Shown here: one piece after another, positions 1 to 15,216 of the stretch
How positions within the stretch are numbered: position 1 is the first letter of the stretch
Layout: each line of letters begins with the position of its first letter
Origin: a virus
Taxonomy: Duplodnaviria; Heunggongvirae; Uroviricota; Caudoviricetes
DNA: 15,216 nt
Virus record (IMG/VR): IMGVR_UViG_2582581022_000009
Reading direction: 5' to 3' (one strand)
Program-made: the position numbers and the translations under genes
The notes under the pieces: generated by a model
Seen by the model: only the letters and a program-made list of their open reading frames with translations
Told to the model about the DNA's origin: nothing
Database searches by the model: none

Positions 1-2
1 AC

Positions 3-779
3 CTTGCAGCCGGCAAGGCGCCCGTCAGCCACACTCACCCGTGGAGTCAGATAACGGGAGTGCCTGCTGCCTCGCTGACGGCAAAAGGCACCGTACAATT
101 GAGCAGTGCCATCAACAGCACGTCTGAAATACTGGCCGCCACACCGAAAGCGGTCAAGGCTGCATACGATCTGGCAAACGGAAAACAACCGGCAGATGCC
201 ACGCTCACTGCTCTGGCAGGACTTGCCACTGCAGCAGATCGGTTGCCTTATTTTACCGGAGCAGACCGCGCAGAGCTGGCAACCCTTACAGCTATTGGTC
301 GCGCTATTATCGCTAAGGGCAGTATAAAAGATGTCCTCAATTACCTTGGTTTGGGGGAAGGCTCGGCGCTGCCCGTTGGTGTACCTGTTCCGTGGCCCAC
401 TGCCACACCGCCAGCAGGCTGGTTACAGTGCAACGGAGCTACGTTCACCAAAGAACAATATCCTGTTCTGGCCAGAGTCTACCCGACCCTCCGTCTTCCC
501 GATTTGCGCGGTGAGTTTATCCGTGGATGGGACGACGGGCGAAAAGTGGATACAGGGCGCGATCTGCTTTCACGGCAGGATGGTACAAGTTTTTCTCATT
601 ACGCAGGTAATTTTGACATTGGGTCTGGTCATTCAATCAATAACTATGACCAAATCCTTGACAACCAACCTGGATTCTCCCGTTTTTCATTTGCAGGTCC
701 TTCGCGAGGCGATGGGGTTAATTATGTGACCATTCGTCCCCGTAACATTGCGTTTAATTACATCGTAAGGGCGGCATAG
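3..779 (+). CDS. Side tail fibre protein, C-terminal part (5' end outside window); constant region fused to variable cassette Sv1
   Basis: Frame is open from window start (codon phase 3) to TAG at 777-779; the GTG at 60 in the ORF track is not a real start. C-terminus ...RPRNIAFNYIVRAA. Gene context (invertase, tfa, alternative cassettes) is typical of Mu G-segment / e14 P-region fibres. Confidence 0.8.
   Translation, partial: LAAGKAPVSHTHPWSQITGVPAASLTAKGTVQLSSAINSTSEILAATPKAVKAAYDLANGKQPADATLTALAGLATAADRLPYFTGADRAELATLTAIGRAIIAKGSIKDVLNYLGLGEGSALPVGVPVPWPTATPPAGWLQCNGATFTKEQYPVLARVYPTLRLPDLRGEFIRGWDDGRKVDTGRDLLSRQDGTSFSHYAGNFDIGSGHSINNYDQILDNQPGFSRFSFAGPSRGDGVNYVTIRPRNIAFNYIVRAA
334..570 (+). 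repeat. Tail-fibre cassette 5' homology block, copy A, with putative 26-bp invertase crossover site at 334-359
   Basis: Encodes GLGEGSALPVGVPVPWPTATPPAGWLQCNGATFTKEQYPVLARVYPTLRLPDLRGEFIRGWD, repeated at 787 and inverted at 2387. Homology begins exactly at GGTTTGGGGGAA (348-359), preceded by TCCTCAATTACC-TT, resembling gix/hix 12-2-12 sites (AAACC-NN-GGTTT core). Confidence 0.55.
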
Positions 780-1009
780 AAACGTTGGTTTGGGGGAAGG
801 CTCTGCATTGCCTGTTGGTGTACCGGTTCCATGGCCCACCGCCACACCGCCAGCAGGCTGGTTACAGTGCAACGGAGCTACGTTCACCAAAGAACAATAT
901 CCTGTTCTGGCCAGAGTCTACCCGACCCTCCGTCTTCCCGATTTGCGCGGTGAGTTTATCCGTGGATGGGACGGTGGTCGCAAGGTTGATACCGGGCGTG
1001 CGCTACTTT
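773..1009 (+). repeat. Tail-fibre cassette 5' homology block, copy B (direct repeat of A), with putative crossover site at 773-798
   Basis: GGCATAGAAACG-TT-GGTTTGGGGGAA at 773-798, then ~135 bp near-identical to copy A (offset 439 bp); lies immediately after the Sv1 stop codon. Confidence 0.55.
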
Positions 1010-1251
1010 CATTTCAGGAAGGGACTATCGTATCCGGTTTTGATGATAATGATACCGGAGATATCAGTTCGCTCGGCTCTACACAATACGGATTTGGTGA
1101 CGCTTTAACCTCTAATCAACTGGGGGTCTTAAATGGCAAAAAGTGGATATTTGATGCATCCTCTAAAGGTGCACAAAGATATGACTGGTGGGCTTATGTA
1201 TCAGCTCGCCCCCGCAATATCGCATTTAACTATATCGTGAGGGCGGCGTGA
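790..1251 (+). CDS. Silent alternative tail-fibre variable C-terminal cassette (Sv2); no independent start
   Basis: ORF begins at the crossover block (TTG is an ORF-finder artefact), shares the N-terminal 70 aa and C-terminal RPRNIAFNYIVRAA with Sv1 but has a different central segment; in a different frame from the upstream fibre. Confidence 0.6.
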   Translation: MGEGSALPVGVPVPWPTATPPAGWLQCNGATFTKEQYPVLARVYPTLRLPDLRGEFIRGWDGGRKVDTGRALLSFQEGTIVSGFDDNDTGDISSLGSTQYGFGDALTSNQLGVLNGKKWIFDASSKGAQRYDWWAYVSARPRNIAFNYIVRAA

Positions 1252-1257
1252 TACCGT

Positions 1258-1872
1258 TCAGCCGGCAAGCGCCAGTGGCGCTTCCGGCCAGCTGATTTCA
1301 GGTGCCTTGCTGATATCCAGTGCGTTCAGCTCGTCGATATAATCCAGCACGGCGTTCAGTTTTGCCGTTTCTTCTGGTTTCAGACTGCGACCAGCACGCA
1401 GTTTGAGGTTGATAAGATCGACGGACGCCATCGCCTGTTTCACCCGTTGCTGGCGTTGCTGTCTGGCAACCTCCAGTTCTGCGGCTCGCTGCCGTTCAGT
1501 ATCGGTTACCCACGCCTCACCGTTCCAGGTATCCCATGGCGTGGCTGGCTGTTTTGTGGTGGTGTCCGCCGGGTAATCACCCGGTTGGGTAATCAGAACG
1601 GGGTTACCGTTCTCCGTGCTGTATACCGTCTCGCCGCGGTGATCAGGCACATGCTCCCACCCGTTCAGCGTGGCAGTCCGGCAAACCACGTAACCCGAAA
1701 TTGCTTCCGGCGGTGCATCGGCGCACGAATGTGCCGGAGTACCCACCCCAAGGGCGAGATACTCCACAGAGGATGAGGTGTATTCCCGGGTTTCCTCGTC
1801 ATAGTGATATACAGTGATATCGCCCGCTACAGTGGCGATACCGTTTTCATCCAGAACTGCAGTGTTACTCAT
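1258..1872 (-). CDS. tfa: Tail fibre assembly protein (Tfa / Mu U family)
   Basis: 204 aa starting MSNTAVLDENG...; ATG overlaps the TAA of the upstream Sv3 cassette (TAATG coupling); position between fibre cassette and convergent cassette matches G-segment architecture. Confidence 0.8.
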   Translation of the reverse strand: MSNTAVLDENGIATVAGDITVYHYDEETREYTSSSVEYLALGVGTPAHSCADAPPEAISGYVVCRTATLNGWEHVPDHRGETVYSTENGNPVLITQPGDYPADTTTKQPATPWDTWNGEAWVTDTERQRAAELEVARQQRQQRVKQAMASVDLINLKLRAGRSLKPEETAKLNAVLDYIDELNALDISKAPEISWPEAPLALAG

Positions 1873-2402
1873 TAAACTGCCCTCACAATGTAATTAAGTG
1901 CAATGCTACGGGGTCTGACAGTGATACCCTTCGCATACCCGCTTCTGATAGAGGTCAGAATAGTAGCCTGCATACCATTGTCTGACATTGCCACGACAGG
2001 ATCGCTGAATGTTGTCCCGTCCGGCATTTTAAAGCTGCCCTCACGAAGGTCTGTAATGGAATCTTCATTGTTGAATCCCATGCCGACTATCCCCGAGGTT
2101 CCCGTAGTGTCCTGGTTATAATAATCCAGCATTGCTGTTCTTAACAGCGTTGCCCCTTGTGCGGACAGCAACTTACGTCCTGTATCAACTTTGCGCCCGT
2201 CGTCCCATCCACGGATAAACTCACCGCGTAAATCGGGAAGACGGAGGGTCGGGTAGACTCTGGCCAGAACAGGATATTGTTCTTTTGTAAAGGCGCGCCC
2301 GTCGCACTTTAACCAGCCTGCTGGCGGTGTGGCGGTGGGCCACGGAACAGGCACACCAACGGGTAGCGCCGAGCCTTCTCCTAAACCACGTTTATCTCTC
2401 AA
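1872..2402 (-). CDS. Alternative tail-fibre variable C-terminal cassette (Sv3), inverted orientation, currently not fused to the constant region
   Basis: Shares the conserved junction block and C-terminal RPRSIALNYIVRAV with Sv1/Sv2, with a unique middle; the only cassette followed in cis by tfa. Confidence 0.65.
   Translation of the reverse strand: MRDKRGLGEGSALPVGVPVPWPTATPPAGWLKCDGRAFTKEQYPVLARVYPTLRLPDLRGEFIRGWDDGRKVDTGRKLLSAQGATLLRTAMLDYYNQDTTGTSGIVGMGFNNEDSITDLREGSFKMPDGTTFSDPVVAMSDNGMQATILTSIRSGYAKGITVRPRSIALNYIVRAV
2165..2401 (-). repeat. Tail-fibre cassette 5' homology block, copy C (inverted), with putative crossover site at 2376-2401
   Basis: Minus strand reads TGAGAGATAAAC-GT-GGTTTAGGAGAA then the same GLGEGSALPVGVPVPWPTATPPAGWL... 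coding block; inverted relative to A and B and adjacent to the invertase gene. Confidence 0.55.
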
Positions 2403-2454
2403 ATCCTCCCCACATTATCTCAGTACTTTAACCACTCAAAAGGGAGTATTTTTA

Positions 2455-3027
2455 ATGCTGATTGGCTACATACGTGTGTCAACAAATGACCAAAACACAG
2501 ATTTGCAACGCAATGCATTAATGTGCGCAGGATGTGAACAGATTTTTGAGGACAAAATGAGCGGAACCAAGTCGGAACGACCAGGCCTGAAACGCGCTTT
2601 AAAGTGCCTTAAAAGAGGGGATACATTGGTGGTCTGGAAGCTGGATCGGTTGGGTAGAAGAATGAAACACCTCATTGCTCTCACAGAAGAGCTACGCGCA
2701 AAAGGTGTCAATTTTCGCAGTCTGACGGATTCAATCGATACCAGCACTCCGATGGGAAGGTTCTTTTTTCATATGATGGGTGCACTGGCAGAAATGGAGC
2801 GTGAACTGATAGTTGAGCGCACGCTGGCTGGACTGGCTGCTGCGCGAGCACAAGGAAGAGTTGGAGGACGTCGCCCGAAACTGACGAAGGAGCAGCATGA
2901 GCAGATCGCAAGATTGCTCCAGAAAGGGTATGACAGAAAGCGGCTGGCAATTATCTATGATATTGGACTGTCAACGATCTACCGCTATCACCCTGTTGGG
3001 ACTGTCATAACGCAACCTGAAATGTAA
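2455..3027 (+). CDS. pin: Site-specific DNA invertase, serine recombinase (Pin/Gin/Cin/Hin family)
   Basis: 190 aa MLIGYIRVSTNDQNTDLQRNALMCAGCEQIFEDKMSG...GRRPKLTKEQHEQIARLL: resolvase/invertase catalytic N-domain with active-site Ser in VST and C-terminal HTH. True ATG at 2455 with AGGGAG RBS (ORF track start 2329 is upstream in-frame read-through). C-terminal ~25 aa differ from my recollection of K-12 PinE. Confidence 0.9.
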   Translation: MLIGYIRVSTNDQNTDLQRNALMCAGCEQIFEDKMSGTKSERPGLKRALKCLKRGDTLVVWKLDRLGRRMKHLIALTEELRAKGVNFRSLTDSIDTSTPMGRFFFHMMGALAEMERELIVERTLAGLAAARAQGRVGGRRPKLTKEQHEQIARLLQKGYDRKRLAIIYDIGLSTIYRYHPVGTVITQPEM

Positions 3028-3182
3028 TTCTTTTTCAAATAATGAAACGCCGCGTGGATGCCATTTATCGCACAAGATAGAGTGCATTTATCGCGCGGCG
3101 CATCACCTTTTGTTGATCCACTCAAATCGGCGGTGGCAATCATGAGTTGCTCACGAACAAACTGTAAATACTGGTTATTCAT
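2988..3182 (-). CDS. Small hypothetical protein (64 aa), translationally coupled to rusA; possibly a remnant at a deletion junction
   Basis: ATG overlaps the rusA stop as ATGA (3179-3182); 3' end overlaps the pin 3' end by 40 nt (convergent). No recognisable domain. Confidence 0.35.
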   Translation of the reverse strand: MNNQYLQFVREQLMIATADLSGSTKGDAPRDKCTLSCAINGIHAAFHYLKKNYISGCVMTVPTG

Positions 3183-3538
3183 GCATACTCCAGTTCTGTG
3201 ATTTTTATCCCCAACCGCCCACCAGGAACAAGCTGACCGCGCACAATATTAATTTCATCAAACTGCTCGTCGTCTATGAGCAGCCCCGCATGCGTCAGTA
3301 CATCCAGTGGTGCCTTCAGGATATTGTCCAGGTCACGACGGCGCTTATCCGGTGGCTCTGCAATAATTTCTATTGCCGGCCTTCCGGACAGGTTTAATTT
3401 CAGTTGCTGCTGGCGAACAATAAGCGCCACATCACGGCGATAACGCTCACCGACTTTTGATACAAAATATGTGCTGCCACGGCGTCGCCAGTAAGTGTTC
3501 ACCGTCGGCGGGTAAGGTAAAACCAAATCTATGAGCAT
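3179..3538 (-). CDS. rusA: Holliday junction resolvase RusA
   Basis: 119 aa with ...PPDKRRRDLDNILKAPLDVLTHAGLLIDDEQ..., matching the RusA catalytic Asp cluster (DRRRRDLDN...DD.Q in E. coli RusA); GAGGTG RBS; nin-region position. Confidence 0.8.
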   Translation of the reverse strand: MLIDLVLPYPPTVNTYWRRRGSTYFVSKVGERYRRDVALIVRQQQLKLNLSGRPAIEIIAEPPDKRRRDLDNILKAPLDVLTHAGLLIDDEQFDEINIVRGQLVPGGRLGIKITELEYA

Positions 3539-3550
3539 CAGTCACCTCTT

Positions 3551-4600
3551 TTACCCAAGCACGCCAGTTGCAAAGGCGTGATCAAGAAAACGAAAAATTA
3601 AATCAACCTGAGAACCATGCTTTTCTTCGAACGCCAGCGGATCCGCATGAAGCTCGTTGTGATGCTCCCGACACAGCGGTAGCGTGAAAATATCGTGAGA
3701 TTTTGTCCCCATTCCGCCCTGACCATGACCAATCAGGTGATGGGGATCGTCGGCTGGCTTACCACAACACGCACACGGCTGTGTCTTCACCCAGCGTGTG
3801 TATTTCTCGTTAACCCAGCGGCGACGTTTAGGTCGTTTCATGAAAGATTCCGGAGACTCAGGATCAACGGCAATGCTGACCACCGTCTTTTCCTGTGGTG
3901 GGTTCTGTTGCTGGTGGGCGTGAGGCAGCGGCGCAAGATTTTTTGTGCGCTGTTTCAGTATGCTGGTGGAGGTCTGCTCTCCCGGTACGATGTCGCTTTC
4001 ACGGTACATTGAGCGGATTTTTTCCGCACGCAACCCCAGCGAACGACGTAATACCGCTTCCGGTAGCGCGTCCGCCACCTGATTGCGGACCGCCCACCAG
4101 GATAATTCAGCCAGCGATAATTCCCGTTCCTGCGAGCCATTCATTGCATGGCGTATGACGTCAATCATCCATGCAGACAGGTTTTGGTGAGCAAGTTGCC
4201 CGAGTGATTCGGAGGTCTGGTCGCGCAGCTGGTTGTCGCAGTGCCAGCACAACACCATTGCGCCGGTACCATAACGGTGAATGACGGTTTCACTGTGGTG
4301 ATAATCACCGTGTGGCCACTGGCAGGATTTAACATGGCGCAGTAACCAATCAGACAATGCGCCAGCGCCACCAGCAGCACGAATCACTCGTTCGTCGCTG
4401 AAAAATGGCAGTAATGATTTATCCTCCGCCAGCGGCTGGCGAACGGCAGGAACGACCCCGGACGGCAGATTACGCATGCTTTTCGGTTCCGGCTCCACCA
4501 GTACCCGGGTATTGTGGAATACCGGCATGGATTCACGGCCCGGCTTAACGATCACCAGCCCGAGTTCCGGTACCAGAACAGGTCGAAGTAATACCCGCAC
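3551..4600 (-). CDS. DUF968-family (YdfU-like) lambdoid nin-region protein with C-terminal HNH-like Cys/His motif
   Basis: 349 aa; C-terminus RPKRRRWVNEKYTRWVKTQPCACCGKPADDPHHLIGHGQGGMGTKSHDIFTLPLCREHHNELH. GTG start with GGAGG RBS; upstream stop adjacent to start (operon coupling). Confidence 0.7.
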   Translation of the reverse strand: MRVLLRPVLVPELGLVIVKPGRESMPVFHNTRVLVEPEPKSMRNLPSGVVPAVRQPLAEDKSLLPFFSDERVIRAAGGAGALSDWLLRHVKSCQWPHGDYHHSETVIHRYGTGAMVLCWHCDNQLRDQTSESLGQLAHQNLSAWMIDVIRHAMNGSQERELSLAELSWWAVRNQVADALPEAVLRRSLGLRAEKIRSMYRESDIVPGEQTSTSILKQRTKNLAPLPHAHQQQNPPQEKTVVSIAVDPESPESFMKRPKRRRWVNEKYTRWVKTQPCACCGKPADDPHHLIGHGQGGMGTKSHDIFTLPLCREHHNELHADPLAFEEKHGSQVDLIFRFLDHAFATGVLG

Positions 4601-4601
4601 G

Positions 4602-4874
4602 TTACCTCCAGATGCGTTGCTGGAATGTGCGGGACGGACGCGGTGGGCGTTCGGAATAAGGGAGTCTGACGTAGATTATCCAGTGACGATAATCGAGGGT
4701 GAGGGCTTTCCTAAACTCATATCCACGTCTGCGGTAGTTATGAATCAGCCATTCGGCCTGTTCTTCAGTACAGGGATCGTGCTGATACCAGTCATATTTG
4801 AATGCGTGAGAACGCCACCCGTGCCTGCTGGCAAAGGCAGAATCAGAATTGCGAAATTTGAAATTATGCGCCAT
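4602..4874 (-). CDS. Hypothetical phage protein (about 90 aa)
   Basis: ORF MAHNFKFRNSDSAFASRHGWRSHAFKYDWYQHDPCTEEQAEWLIHNYRRRGYEFRK...; GGAG RBS 7 nt upstream of ATG at 4874; stop abuts the start of the DUF968 gene. Confidence 0.5.
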   Translation of the reverse strand: MAHNFKFRNSDSAFASRHGWRSHAFKYDWYQHDPCTEEQAEWLIHNYRRRGYEFRKALTLDYRHWIIYVRLPYSERPPRPSRTFQQRIWR

Positions 4875-4933
4875 TGTCATCTCCAATGGCGCTGCAGGTT
4901 GCCAGTTGTTCAGGCTGGCTCACGTATTATAAC

Positions 4934-5107
4934 TTATTCCCGAACTACCTTGAAACCGAGTCTTTCCAAGTATTCAATGAATGCCTCAACAGATAACACT
5001 ACATGATCATCAGGAATTAACGCTGTGTAGGTAATACCCCCATTCTCAACGCGCACAGCATAGAGGCCATCTTCACTAAAAATTTCACGTAATTCTTCGA
5101 TTTTCAT
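4934..5107 (-). CDS. Small hypothetical protein (57 aa; alternative start at 5155 gives 73 aa), in a Rem-like position
   Basis: MKIEELREIFSEDGLYAVRVENGGITYTALIPDDHVVLSVEAFIEYLERLGFKVVRE; GGAAGGA RBS before ATG 5107; AGGGAG before ATG 5155 as well. Confidence 0.45.
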   Translation of the reverse strand: MKIEELREIFSEDGLYAVRVENGGITYTALIPDDHVVLSVEAFIEYLERLGFKVVRE

Positions 5108-5226
5108 CAACAGAATCCTTCCAGATAAATAGCACTCCCCCTGTTCGGGGTCCATCCCTCTTCTCCCTGCGCGCTACTTAAGTATTTTTGATTCTATTCT
5201 GGCACCGTCCAAAACTTCAAACACGT

Positions 5227-5260
5227 TGAAAATAAAAACAAAAAACCCGCCGAAGCGGGT
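5227..5260 (-). terminator. Rho-independent terminator (minus strand) downstream of the HTH-peptidase gene
   Basis: Hairpin ACCCGC-cgaa-GCGGGT (5245-5260) followed on the minus strand by TTTTTTGTTTTTATTTT. Confidence 0.6.
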
Positions 5261-5264
5261 ATAC

Positions 5265-6368
5265 TCAAACAATCTGGAAAATATTTCTTGGATTTGTAAT
5301 AGGTCTGTTGATGGAGAACAACTCACGAATTAAATCTTGGCTCAAGCCAGTTTTCATAAGAATTCTTAGCCAGGTTGCATCATCCAGCATTTCAATCGCC
5401 TCGGCCAGCATGCCGGGTTCTTCAGGGCGCAAAAGTTCATCACCAGGTTCAACTCTCGTATACCCTCTGGAATTAAGATGCATATAGCCAGTTCTTGCCT
5501 GTTCCTGGGTCAATAAGCCTAATGCGCTGGCTCGATAAATACACATTTTAAGGCTGATTTTCCATCTAAGTTTAAATTCAACCAGAGCATTCCAGTCGAA
5601 TTGCTTACCTCGTATTCGTGGAAATTCTTTAATGAAAGATAACCTGGGAACTAATAAGGCGCTCGAAAAGTGATCGGCTTGTGATTCCGTAAGTTTATCA
5701 CCTGTCGTTATGCCCTCATGCATTACTAAATGCCCTAATTCATGACCTAAATCAGAGCGAAATCTACATATGCTTTTTTTAACATTGTTCCTGATGATAA
5801 CAGGCCTGTTATTGTGAACAGTAAAAGCATCAACACGATCATCGACTCCCGTAACATGCGCAACGATTACCCCTAAACTCTCCGCCAATTTAACCATTGA
5901 TGATATAGGGCCAAGACCTAAATTCCAGGCACGGCGACAATCTTCTGCCACTCGCTCAATATCATTCGGAGTAAGTAATTCAGCCCCTGGGTGCTCCGGT
6001 ATGTTAACGTCAGGAAATTCGATTTCACCTTCAACAGCAGAAATTATAATATTAAGAATCTCAGCCCTGGCCAATACACTATTAGTCAGCGTTTGAGTCC
6101 TGGACTTCTTACTCCGAAAATGGCAGACATCACTTTCCAGAGCGTATTTTCGTTCAGTAAAAAGAAAACTGGACTTAATCATAAGCGCTGAAGATATTAA
6201 CTCAAGACATTGCTCCGATGGCCTGCACCCCTTCTCCAGTTTGCTAACGAATTGCTTTGTCTTGCCAATTTTTTCGGCTAACTCTTCACAAGAAAGCCCA
6301 ACAGCCATTCTCGCTAGTTTGAGCTTATCACCCCGATACTCAGTGAAGTTATTCACCTGATGTTCCAT
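5265..6368 (-). CDS. Fusion protein: N-terminal XRE-family HTH + ImmA/IrrE-type (M78, COG2856-like) zinc metallopeptidase domain
   Basis: HTH: LKLARMAVGLSCEELAEKIGKTKQFVSKLEKGCRPSEQCLELISSAL; peptidase motif HEXXH as SDLGHELGHLVMHEG (HELGH, as in IrrE/ImmA). Overlaps the upstream gene by ~20 nt; sampled 60-bp stretches are ~30-35% GC versus >50% in flanks. Confidence 0.75.
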   Translation of the reverse strand: MEHQVNNFTEYRGDKLKLARMAVGLSCEELAEKIGKTKQFVSKLEKGCRPSEQCLELISSALMIKSSFLFTERKYALESDVCHFRSKKSRTQTLTNSVLARAEILNIIISAVEGEIEFPDVNIPEHPGAELLTPNDIERVAEDCRRAWNLGLGPISSMVKLAESLGVIVAHVTGVDDRVDAFTVHNNRPVIIRNNVKKSICRFRSDLGHELGHLVMHEGITTGDKLTESQADHFSSALLVPRLSFIKEFPRIRGKQFDWNALVEFKLRWKISLKMCIYRASALGLLTQEQARTGYMHLNSRGYTRVEPGDELLRPEEPGMLAEAIEMLDDATWLRILMKTGLSQDLIRELFSINRPITNPRNIFQIV

Positions 6369-6999
6369 CACTGCTCACATCCAAATCTTTATCCTTCGTA
6401 CGCCGACGAAGAGGCACCTTATTAATCTCCGCTTCGTCAGGGAGTGTGTTATAATCAAGAGGCATAAGCGGCATCGATGCTGTAGATTGATGAGAAACTA
6501 TACTAATCTGAGCACCATAAGTATTAAATCCAACAAGAGCTACCTCCCAACGAGGCAGTGTGGACTCTAATTCACCATCGCCCTCTTCGGATAAAAAAGG
6601 CTCAGCTATGACTCGCCATGTAATATCTTGCTCAGCCTCAACATCACCAAACAATGAGAGCTGCTCATACTCTACTTTATTTCGACGCAGACGATGTTTC
6701 TTTTTGGGGTTATTAATGCAATCTTTGGTAAATTGTAGCGGAACTTTATTTAAAGCAACTACATAGTCCAACCCCTTGGAAATCATCTCAAGGCCAGGAA
6801 TTGCATCTTCATTTTGAATAAGATGATTTCTGACCCAATCATAAGCCCTTACACCTTCAGACCAGTTGCTGTCTAATGCGTGCTTATGATAGTACAGCTG
6901 CTCAAGTACGTTAGCGATCTCCGCCAACAAGTGGCGAACATAGTTTTCAGCAAGATAAGGTTGAAATTCCCAACAAGGAGCTAACTGATTTTCATTCAT
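6349..6999 (-). CDS. Hypothetical protein (216 aa), first gene of the AT-rich cassette; no recognisable domain
   Basis: MNENQLAPCWEFQPYLAENYVRHLL...; basic patch KKKHRLRRNK mid-protein, acidic C-terminus; co-oriented and overlapping with the HTH-peptidase gene. Confidence 0.6.
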   Translation of the reverse strand: MNENQLAPCWEFQPYLAENYVRHLLAEIANVLEQLYYHKHALDSNWSEGVRAYDWVRNHLIQNEDAIPGLEMISKGLDYVVALNKVPLQFTKDCINNPKKKHRLRRNKVEYEQLSLFGDVEAEQDITWRVIAEPFLSEEGDGELESTLPRWEVALVGFNTYGAQISIVSHQSTASMPLMPLDYNTLPDEAEINKVPLRRRTKDKDLDVSSDGTSGE

Positions 7000-7034
7000 T
7001 TCAAGTTTCGCTTTTTTTAGAATTCGTAAACCAC

Positions 7035-7063
7035 ATATTTTCGCATTTTTCTATTTTTGTCAA
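7035..7063 (-). promoter_or_regulatory. Putative sigma70 promoter for the two-gene cassette
   Basis: Minus strand: TTGACA (7063-7058), 17-bp spacer, AAATAT, about 35 nt upstream of the 6999 start codon. Confidence 0.35.
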
Positions 7064-7071
7064 CCAGACTA

Positions 7072-14223: not shown

Positions 14224-14352
14224 ATGGATTTCGACACAATCATGGAAAAGGCTTACGAAGAATACTTCGATGGTCTTGCCGAAGGCGAAGAAGCTCTCAG
14301 CTTCAGTGAATTTAAACAGGCGCTTTCCAGTTCGGGAAAATCTAACGGCTGA
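14224..14352 (+). CDS. Small hypothetical protein (42 aa), not in the supplied ORF track
   Basis: ATG 1 nt after the preceding stop; MDFDTIMEKAYEEYFDGLAEGEEALSFSEFKQALSSSGKSNG; RBS-like GGTGAG upstream. Confidence 0.45.
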   Translation: MDFDTIMEKAYEEYFDGLAEGEEALSFSEFKQALSSSGKSNG

Positions 14353-14381
14353 TAAGCGAAACAGCACCGCGAGGAATCAGT

Positions 14382-14600
14382 ATGCAGAAACGAGAACCCG
14401 TCATCATCGCGCCAGACTATACCGATGATGAACTTTATGAGTGGATGCGCCAGAAAATTAATGCAGTGCAGGATCTGAAATGGGCCAATGAAGCCAGGAC
14501 TAAGCAGGCTGAAAATCTGTCCGCTCTGGAGCAGGATATCACCAGGCTGGAAAAAGCAGCGGCATTAAGCATTGCCAGAATGGTTACATACCCACGTTAA
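14382..14600 (+). CDS. Hypothetical early protein (72 aa)
   Basis: GAGGAA RBS 7 nt upstream; MQKREPVIIAPDYTDDELYEWMRQKINAVQDLKWANEARTKQAENLSALEQDITRLEKAAALSIARMVTYPR. Confidence 0.55.
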   Translation: MQKREPVIIAPDYTDDELYEWMRQKINAVQDLKWANEARTKQAENLSALEQDITRLEKAAALSIARMVTYPR

Positions 14601-14622
14601 TAGCTAACCAACGAGGCTAATA

Positions 14623-15024
14623 ATGGAATTTAAAGATTTACCAATGCCATTCCAGGAAATGGCAGCGAATGTGATTCGCTCTCAACTGGCGACTCTTGAC
14701 CTGAGTACTGTAGAAAAGGAAACCATCGATACTATATCCGGTAACGTGCGTCGTGCCTTTATAGGTCTGTATGAAGAGAAGCGCCTATTCGGCGGACAGA
14801 ATTCGCCTGAAAACAAGAATCAAGCAAATGATGAGAAGCTGAAACACATTATCGCCTTACTTTTGGAAGACGCAAAACGTCTACAGCAACTGGAACCAAA
14901 TGCAGGCACAGAGGCCCGCATTTGGATTGCCATGAAATCACTCAAATGTGAAAGCAGTGATTATTTCAAAACAACAATTAAAACTACTCAACTTTCGGGA
15001 GAGCTACTGAAGAAATTGCCATAA
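14623..15024 (+). CDS. Hypothetical early protein (133 aa)
   Basis: ACGAGG RBS upstream of ATG 14623; no recognisable domain. Confidence 0.55.
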   Translation: MEFKDLPMPFQEMAANVIRSQLATLDLSTVEKETIDTISGNVRRAFIGLYEEKRLFGGQNSPENKNQANDEKLKHIIALLLEDAKRLQQLEPNAGTEARIWIAMKSLKCESSDYFKTTIKTTQLSGELLKKLP

Positions 15025-15216
15025 GAGCATGGTCTTTCTCTTGTTCTGCAAGATGAGCATTAATACCTGGTATGGTTTTTTCAAATTTATCTATCTGTTG
15101 AATAACAACTTCGCGGTATACGTTTGTTTTTGTACCACCAAGCGCAGCCGTTAATGCAGAAAGCATATTTAGTATCATATCAGTGCGATATGAAAGAATC
15201 CTGATAGCTTCATCTT

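What the first reader, a model, noticed from the sequence alone, without database searches (positions are those of the whole stretch)
2376..2401. Pin-proximal crossover site has a 1-bp shorter core and a different central dinucleotide
Aligned on the conserved half-site: A = TCCTCAATTACC-TT-GGTTTGGGGGAA, B = GGCATAGAAACG-TT-GGTTTGGGGGAA, C (minus strand) = TGAGAGATAAAC-GT-GGTTTAGGAGAA. Site C looks like B with one T deleted from ...AAACGTT. For Gin/Hin invertases the two central crossover bases must match between partner sites, so C may be incompatible with A and B and the switch could be locked in the Sv1-expressing orientation. This rests on my placement of the crossover by analogy with gix/hix.
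Basis: inference. Interest (0 to 1): 0.5.

Follow-up and report, generated by a model that had tools for sequence, protein, structure and literature searches.

The report
One-base deletion freezes tail-fibre switch
A known phage DNA switch that swaps tail-fibre tips has lost one of the two bases where its enzyme cuts at one site, and genomes carrying this loss appear never to flip, so the switch is most likely frozen.

Summary
Sites A (334-359) and B (773-798) read 12 bp - TT - GGTTTGGGGGAA. Site C (2376-2401, minus strand) reads TGAGAGATAAAC-GT-GGTTTAGGAGAA. Orthologous loci, such as E. coli ST131 prophage Phi2, carry GAGAGATAAACG-TT-GGTTTAGGAGAA at C. The window has therefore lost one T of the 2-bp core, leaving a 25-bp site.

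From window position 912 to the prophage end at 3105, this deletion is the only difference from JJ1886. The pin gene is identical.

With the TT allele the switch flips freely. Among 5,426 complete E. coli genomes, 268 have the window's arrangement, 296 have Sv1 next to pin, and 241 have Sv2 next to pin. The hybrid sites place the exchange within TTGGTTT. Both orientations also occur within single insertion lineages and within one culture.

The deleted allele is rare: about 29 contigs, against at least 998 for the wild type. Every lineage that carries it shows a single orientation (11, 3, 3 and 9 contigs).

C is the only site inverted relative to A and B, so losing it should freeze the whole switch with Sv1 expressed. 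No experiment has tested this.

The switch itself is already published; the locked allele is a minor new variant. Why the same deletion appears on several phage backgrounds is unexplained.

The parts
3..345 (+). Constant 3' part of the tail-fibre gene (Sc). It runs off the window start and ends with the outer half of site A.
   Evidence: In frame with Sv1. Pfam Phage_fiber_2. Matches the 415-543-aa tail fibres of related loci.
334..359 (+). Crossover site A: TCCTCAATTACC TT GGTTTGGGGGAA (26 bp, core TT at 346-347).
   Evidence: Identical to Phi2_5prime in PMC4134206 apart from the inner-half markers.
348..779 (+). Sv1, the tail-fibre C-terminal cassette currently fused in frame to Sc (stop at 777-779).
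   Evidence: ORF 60-779. Pfam Collar.
773..798 (+). Crossover site B: GGCATAGAAACG TT GGTTTGGGGGAA (26 bp, same direction as A).
   Evidence: B is used in nature: the U15A B x C recombinant and 241 genomes with Sv2 next to pin.
787..1251 (+). Sv2, a silent cassette.
   Evidence: Pfam Collar. The Sc-Sv2 fusion protein is seen on at least 1000 contigs in relatives.
1258..1872 (-). Tail-fibre assembly gene (tfa), co-oriented with Sv3.
   Evidence: Pfam Caudo_TAP, E 5.6e-27.
1872..2387 (-). Sv3, a silent cassette. Its first 12 bases are the inner half of site C.
   Evidence: Pfam Collar. The Sc-Sv3 fusion is seen on at least 1000 contigs in relatives.
2376..2400 (-). Crossover site C, the deleted allele: outer half GAGAGATAAACG, a single core T, inner half GGTTTAGGAGAA (25 bp). 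The only site inverted relative to A and B.
   Evidence: 1-nt gap against JJ1886 and E41-1 at 2387/2388. Wild-type TT in 15 related loci.
2455..3027 (+). pin, a Gin-type serine DNA invertase of 190 aa with Ser9.
   Evidence: Pfam Resolvase + HTH_7. Mu Gin PDB 4m6f, E 2e-93. DNA identical to the ST131 gene.
3041..3105 (+). Right end of the Mu-like transposable prophage. It ends ...GCGCGGCGCATCA and holds two CATTTATCGC repeats.
   Evidence: Homology to all related loci stops at 3105, and the flanks then differ (more than 20 insertion sites).

Best explanation
Window 1-3105 is the right end of a Mu-like transposable prophage. It carries a three-site, Gin-type invertible tail-fibre segment. The same switch has been described as prophage Phi2 of E. 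coli ST131.

Pin normally inverts A x C or B x C. It makes staggered cuts at the central TT of the 26-bp sites, and this brings Sv1, Sv2 or Sv3(+tfa) behind the constant fibre part.

In this window the pin-proximal site C has lost one T of that core. The two half-sites now sit 1 bp closer together. Whichever half-site sets the register, the overhang (GT or TG) no longer matches the TT of A and B. Recombinant ligation should therefore fail, and cleavage may fail as well.

C is the only site in inverted orientation, so both possible inversions are lost. The fibre gene stays fused to Sv1.

Shown: the deletion, the intact and identical pin, the flipping of the TT allele, and the absence of flipped forms of the deleted allele. 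Inferred: the biochemical block.
For: Deletion and its polarity:
-. The only difference from JJ1886 over 912-3105 is the 1-nt gap.
- The window's source contig was identified (L009).

Known switch:
- PMC4134206, Table 3 and text. Both orientations were present in one EC958 culture.

Wild type flips:
- Genome counts of 268, 296 and 241 for the three arrangements.
- Reciprocal hybrid sites.
- Sc-Sv1, Sc-Sv2 and Sc-Sv3 fusion proteins are each on about 1000 contigs.
- Matched controls: both orientations occur within the same insertion, L025 vs L031/L036 and L028 vs L037, all with TT.

Deleted allele does not flip:
- FHIPEP-context lineage 11 contigs, gspL 3, aroA 3, and the B36-type phage 9 contigs at 5 insertion sites with 3,851 bp identical. 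Each group shows one arrangement only.
- Proteins predicted for the flipped state, and for core-conversion products (MRDKL......NYRGLGEG...), are absent.

Other components intact:
- Pin and its 5' region are identical to the flipping ST131 element.
- Ser9 is present, and Pin matches Mu Gin over residues 1-181 at E 2e-93.

Mechanistic precedent:
- One base change in a hix core blocks ligation in the inverted orientation (PMC4817059).
Against: - No experiment or read-level data exist for this strain.
- The deleted outer half-site lies next to different inner halves in different phages: A-type with Sv3, G-type with Sv4 or Sv1, and G-type with Sv3 in L010. That requires either several independent deletions or occasional recombination of the deleted site.
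- Samples within a lineage may not be independent.
- Homologous recombination between the ~230-bp inverted repeats (86-88% identical) could still invert the segment rarely.
- The exact-protein look-ups would miss flipped forms that carry any extra substitution.
Confidence: 0.75

Rival explanations
1. The deleted site still works, perhaps slowly. Either Pin tolerates the 25-bp site, or the true exchange point lies in the TGGTTT shared by all sites, so the switch is not locked.
For: - The deleted outer half is joined to three kinds of inner half or cassette in different phages.
- Two phages with the same cassette pair and the deleted allele are in opposite states: the B36-type expresses Sv3 and the M9682-type expresses Sv4.
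- Natural recombinants only narrow the exchange to 7 bp, TTGGTTT.
Against: - The dyad TAAAC-G TT G-GTTTA is centred on TT.
- Every deletion lineage is monomorphic, while matched TT lineages are not.
- Flipped-state and conversion-product proteins are absent.
- In every deletion locus where site A lies within the fetched sequence, A is still 26 bp with TT. That is not the simple segregant expected from a 25 x 26 bp exchange.
Confidence: 0.15
2. The missing base is a sequencing or assembly error in the draft contig, and the real site is the normal 26-bp TT site.
For: - It is a single-base indel in a draft assembly.
- Mixed-orientation cultures can confuse assemblers (PMC4134206).
Against: The identical deletion occurs in about 29 contigs from unrelated projects and sequencing platforms. 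It is inherited consistently within insertion lineages.
Confidence: 0.03
3. The switch is frozen for a different reason, such as an inactive invertase or a lost enhancer, and the core deletion is a neutral later change in a decaying prophage.
For: The prophage lies inside another prophage, and in ST131 the same element sits right next to aroA, with its fibre gene annotated as fragments in some records.
Against: - From site C to the element end, the DNA is identical to ST131 copies that flip in culture.
- The deleted allele is carried by phages that have recently inserted at 5 and 2 different sites, so they are not decaying.
Confidence: 0.03

Closest known systems
E. coli ST131 EC958 prophage Phi2 invertible tail-fibre segment (Forde et al. 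2014, PMC4134206)
   Same: It is the same element. The pin gene, the cassettes and sites A and B are identical. The published sites are TCCTCAATTACC TT GGTTTAGGAGAA and GAGAGATAAACG TT GGTTTGGGGGAA, flanking a 2,067-bp invertible segment.
   Different: - The window lacks one T of the core at the pin-proximal site.
- It is inserted in a lambdoid Q gene rather than next to aroA.
- The paper describes two sites only; B x C inversion is shown here.
Phage Mu G segment / Gin
   Same: - Transposable phage with the invertible fibre segment and the invertase at the right end.
- Pin matches Gin at E 2e-93 over residues 1-181 with Ser9.
- 12-2-12 crossover sites.
   Different: - Three sites and three cassettes rather than two.
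- Core TT rather than the gix core (from my own knowledge).
- The early region points the opposite way from Mu's.
- One site is mutated.
Hin/hix substrates with a single base change in one core (pRJ862; PMC4817059)
   Same: Partner sites have non-matching cores. Ligation in the inverted orientation is prevented, so only the parental orientation is recovered.
   Different: - That is an engineered substitution that keeps the 26-bp length.
- This is a natural 1-bp deletion, which also changes half-site spacing.
- Whether the 25-bp site is cleaved at all is unknown.
P1 Cin/cix quasi-sites and localized conversion of the central dinucleotide (Iida & Hiestand-Nauer 1986, 1987; listed in the reference list shown, content recalled from memory)
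   Same: Natural sites with deviant central dinucleotides recombine poorly. When they do, the core is converted.
   Different: No conversion products were found for the deleted allele. The lesion here is a deletion, not a substitution.
Multiple-inversion systems (p15B Min, Shigella boydii B segment; Sandmeier 1994, as cited in PMC4134206)
   Same: More than two crossover sites shuffle several fibre cassettes behind one constant part.
   Different: Here there are only three sites, and a single one is inverted. One mutation therefore disables the whole system.

Membership tests
Gin/Hin/Cin/Pin (Din) DNA inversion systems | Small serine recombinase of about 190 aa with a resolvase catalytic domain, a C-terminal HTH and a catalytic Ser near position 9-10. 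| tested here: met
   Pfam Resolvase E 8e-51 and HTH_7 E 1e-12. Mu Gin structures 4m6f and 3uj3 at E 2e-93 over residues 1-181, with RVS(9)T conserved.
Gin/Hin/Cin/Pin (Din) DNA inversion systems | 26-bp crossover sites: two 12-bp imperfect inverted half-sites around a 2-bp core. | tested here: not met
   A and B fit 12-2-12. C in this window is 12-1-12 (25 bp). Orthologous C sites in 15 related loci fit 12-2-12.
Gin/Hin/Cin/Pin (Din) DNA inversion systems | Identical core dinucleotide in the partner sites. | tested here: not met
   A and B have TT. C has a single T, read as GT or TG in a 2-nt register. The rule itself is from PMC4817059.
Gin/Hin/Cin/Pin (Din) DNA inversion systems | Partner sites in inverted orientation flanking the segment, with the invertase gene adjacent. 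| tested here: met
   A and B are on the + strand and C is on the - strand. pin starts 54 bp beyond C.
Gin/Hin/Cin/Pin (Din) DNA inversion systems | The segment is found in both orientations. | tested here: inconclusive
   Met for the TT allele (PMC4134206). Not seen for the deleted allele in about 29 contigs. No reads are available for this strain.
Gin/Hin/Cin/Pin (Din) DNA inversion systems | Fis-dependent recombinational enhancer, usually inside the 5' part of the invertase gene. | not tested
   Only indirect evidence: the pin 5' region is base-for-base identical to ST131 copies that flip. A crude G-N13-C scan gave candidates but no test.
Gin/Hin/Cin/Pin (Din) DNA inversion systems | The segment carries alternative C-terminal tail-fibre parts, with a fibre assembly gene. 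| tested here: met
   Sv1, Sv2 and Sv3 each have a Collar domain. tfa matches Caudo_TAP. Sc matches Phage_fiber_2.
Mu-like transposable phages | DDE transposase, MuB-like ATPase, Gam and Mor; insertion at many unrelated chromosomal sites, with the element ending in CA. | tested here: met
   Annotation of the M9682-C1 copy, which splits gspL. Homology ends at ...GCATCA (window 3105), followed by more than 20 different flanks. The left end and the target duplication were not examined.

The most novel reading that the evidence does not exclude
The same one-base loss at the invertase's cutting point may have arisen several times independently in this phage family. Two explanations would fit. It could be a scar of the invertase's own cleavage, for example trimming of the 2-nt 3' overhang before religation. 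Or locking the fibre type could be repeatedly favoured in phages that are still spreading. Natural core deletions would then be a recurrent route by which phase-variable host-range switches turn into fixed ones.
Probability: 0.25. Interest if true: 0.55.

Novelty: new variant of a known kind. Interest (0 to 1): 0.35.

Why it matters
The switch is a textbook type, and this very one is already published for ST131, so there is no new mechanism here.

What the finding adds is a natural null allele of a crossover site, with matched flipping and non-flipping lineages already present in public genomes. That amounts to a natural test of the core-matching rule for serine invertases.

It also shows that in a three-site switch with a single inverted partner, one base can fix a phage's receptor-binding tip. 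This matters when predicting host range from prophage sequence.

If the deletion proves to be recurrent, it would point to invertase-linked mutagenesis or to selection for locking.

Tried and rejected
- Exact-pattern scans for the deleted junction, including possible core-converted forms (GAGAGATAAACNTGGTTTRGGRGAAGG), found nothing in IMG/VR, GTDB representative genomes or JGI metagenomes. These collections do not hold the allele at all, so the scans say nothing about flipping.
- A search of the phage collection gave only partial matches.
- 89-nt BLAST queries for a matching 1-bp deletion at site A found none in about 590 complete genomes. Two C-site cases among complete genomes are too few to show an asymmetry.
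- A simple promoter scan found no pin promoter overlapping site C.
- I considered that B36 shows flipping of the deleted allele. I rejected this as proof, because B36 carries a different cassette (Sv4) and belongs to a lineage fixed in one state at five insertion sites.
- I considered de novo origin of the deletion in the ST131 aroA copy. Gene conversion from a co-resident deleted phage cannot be excluded, because the flanking DNA is identical.
- Sequencing error is rejected; see the rival explanations.

Full report
**1. What is in the sequence**

The window starts inside a phage tail-fibre gene. Its constant part (Sc, 3-345) is fused in frame to a C-terminal cassette, Sv1 (348-779). Next come a second cassette, Sv2 (787-1251), and then on the opposite strand a tail-fibre assembly gene (1258-1872) and a third cassette, Sv3 (1872-2387). 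A 190-aa serine recombinase gene, pin, follows at 2455-3027.

Each cassette begins with a ~230-nt block that is 86-90% identical among the three. At the outer edge of each block lies a crossover site:
- A: 334-359 (+), TCCTCAATTACC TT GGTTTGGGGGAA.
- B: 773-798 (+), GGCATAGAAACG TT GGTTTGGGGGAA.
- C: 2401-2376 (-), TGAGAGATAAAC GT GGTTTAGGAGAA.

**2. Site C carries a derived one-base deletion**

The first 3.1 kb of the window matches a prophage of E. coli ST131 at 99.6%. In JJ1886 and E41-1 the pin-proximal site reads GAGAGATAAACG TT GGTTTAGGAGAA.

A base-by-base alignment shows 12 differences between the window and JJ1886, all but one of them upstream of position 912. From 912 to 3105 the only difference is a 1-nt gap at 2387/2388. 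The window has therefore lost one T (an A on the + strand) of the two-base core. The true site is 25 bp: 2376-2387 inner half, 2388 core, 2389-2400 outer half.

The pin gene, the spacer before it and the DNA up to the end of the element are identical to ST131.

**3. The switch is known, and the normal allele flips**

The EC958 genome paper describes this element as prophage Phi2. It reports a 2,067-bp invertible segment bounded by TCCTCAATTACC TT GGTTTAGGAGAA and GAGAGATAAACG TT GGTTTGGGGGAA. Alternative-orientation contigs were assembled from a single culture (PMC4134206).

Synthetic junction queries against 5,426 complete E. coli genomes gave these counts:
- 268 genomes with the window's arrangement.
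- 296 with Sv1 inverted next to pin.
- 241 with Sv2 inverted next to pin.

EC958 carries the reciprocal A/C hybrids, and U15A carries the reciprocal B/C hybrids. The inner-half markers (GGTTT**G**GG**G**GAA versus GGTTT**A**GG**A**GAA) confine the exchange to TTGGTTT. Site B is therefore a working site, and the system has four arrangements and three expressed fibres.

The fusion proteins Sc-Sv1, Sc-Sv2 and Sc-Sv3 are each recorded on about 1,000 contigs, which is the counting cap.

**4. The deleted allele is real, rare and scattered**

An exact look-up of the ORF that the deletion creates (TTG at 2402 in frame with Sv3) identified the window as contig JICH01000084.1 of GCA_000691085.1. It also found the same allele in other assemblies.

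Across all look-ups the allele is on about 29 contigs: 5-7 window-type, 14 M9682-type, 9 B36-type and 1 other. The wild-type Sv3 ORF is on at least 998.

Among complete genomes only M9682-C1 and B36 carry the deletion. These assemblies come from Illumina, PacBio, hybrid and metagenome data, so a sequencing error is excluded.

**5. The host element is a transposable phage**

In every locus, homology ends at window 3105 (...GCGCGGCGCATCA), and the sequence beyond it differs. I saw more than 20 insertion sites. The complete copy in M9682-C1 splits gspL and encodes a DDE transposase, a MuB-like ATPase, Gam and Mor.

In the window the phage sits 77 bp inside a lambdoid Q antiterminator gene.

**6. 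Does the deleted site still recombine?**

C is the only site inverted relative to A and B, so every inversion needs it. I compared lineages defined by their insertion site.

TT-allele lineages are polymorphic:
- ST131 next to aroA shows all arrangements.
- The insertion with flank GCGACAGGCG... has L025 in one state and L031 and L036 in the other.
- The insertion with flank AAAAACAGCC... has L028 and L037 in opposite states.
- All of these carry TT and reciprocal hybrids.

Deletion-allele lineages are each monomorphic:
- 11 contigs at a FHIPEP-gene insertion and 3 at gspL.
- 3 at aroA.
- 9 contigs of a phage whose last 3,851 bp are identical at five different insertion sites.

The proteins predicted for the flipped state of each deleted lineage are not in a collection of about 15 billion proteins. 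Neither are the products expected if a mismatched core had been converted (MRDKL......NYRGLGEG...).

If deleted elements flipped like wild-type ones, and samples were independent, this pattern would have a probability of roughly 1e-6 to 1e-7. That is my rough estimate, not a formal test.

**7. Mechanism**

Pin matches Mu Gin over residues 1-181 at E 2e-93 and has the catalytic Ser9. For this family, cleavage is staggered by two bases at the centre of the 12-2-12 site, and the overhangs of the two partners must pair. A single base change in one hix core prevents ligation in the inverted orientation (PMC4817059).

The dyad in the wild-type site (TAAAC-G TT G-GTTTA) is centred on TT. Losing one T does two things. 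It brings the half-sites 1 bp closer, and it leaves an overhang (GT if the inner half sets the register, TG if the outer half does) that cannot pair fully with the AA of a TT partner. Either defect should block inversion. Which of them acts is not known. This step is inference.

**8. What remains unexplained**

The deleted outer half lies next to different inner halves in different phages:
- A-type with Sv3: the window, L005, L007, L008 and the M9682-type.
- G-type with Sv4: the B36-type.
- G-type with Sv1: L012.
- G-type with Sv3: L010.

The deletion also sits on at least two pin-side haplotypes, each shared with TT loci of the same architecture. In the ST131 aroA copy it is the only change from JJ1886.

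Three explanations remain open. The deletion may arise repeatedly. It may move between co-resident phages by homologous recombination. Or the deleted site may still recombine very rarely. My data cannot separate these.

No equivalent deletion at site A was found in about 590 complete genomes, but the numbers are too small to show an asymmetry.

**9. Verdict**

The system is a known kind and this very switch is published. The new element is a natural locked allele. Interest is moderate to low. It would rise if the deletion proves to be a recurrent product of invertase activity or of selection for a fixed host range.

Noticed in passing
window 3041-3105 and 2988-3182: The prophage ends at 3105 with ...GCGCGGCGCATCA, preceded by two CATTTATCGC repeats 23 bp apart, which may be transposase binding sites. 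It is inserted 77 bp into a lambdoid Q antiterminator gene, so ORF 2988-3182 (-) is a hybrid (Pfam PF06323 positions 1-24).
   Followed up: partly
window 3106-15216: The rest of the window is a lambdoid prophage early region: RusA 3179-3538, DUF968 3551-4600, Rem 4934-5155, HTH/Peptidase_M78 5265-6371, hok 7165-7377, QueH 7558-8244, then DUF977, DUF1627, lambda P and DnaT. An IS3-family element (orfA/orfB, 8326-9593) is inserted in it. No complete E. coli genome holds this junction with the Mu-like phage.
   Followed up: partly
window 426-449: Sv1 carries a patch (QCNGATF, as in Sv2) where the ST131 copy has KCDGRAF (as in Sv3). Inner-half markers also move between cassettes in other loci (L023, L010). 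This points to gene conversion or homologous exchange within the ~230-bp shared cassette heads.
   Followed up: partly
window 1258-1872 versus 348-1251: Only Sv3 has a co-oriented tail-fibre assembly gene; Sv1 and Sv2 have none. In the locked state of this window, and of the M9682-type phage, the expressed fibre tip has no assembly gene downstream on its own strand.
   Followed up: no
window 1872-2402 (-): The deletion puts a TTG at 2402 in frame with Sv3. Annotation pipelines then call a 176-aa 'phage tail protein' (WP_064735262.1) that starts in the outer half-site. This ORF is a convenient exact-match marker for the allele.
   Followed up: yes
L011, L013-L017 (B36-type) and L018-L020 (M9682-type): Phages carrying the deleted site have inserted at five and at two different chromosomal sites. 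The five B36-type insertions have identical right-end sequence. The locked phages are therefore still mobile rather than decaying remnants.
   Followed up: partly
L003, L005, L006, L013 tail-fibre genes: The constant fibre part varies in length (fibres of 415, 487, 530 and 540 aa) through gain and loss of ~56-aa Phage_fiber_2 repeat units.
   Followed up: no
L021 (M9682-C1, NZ_CP024275.1 3631000-3658000): The early operon (transposase, MuB-like ATPase, Gam, Mor) reads outward toward one end, and the late genes read toward the pin end. This layout differs from Mu and resembles, from memory, BcepMu-like phages.
   Followed up: no
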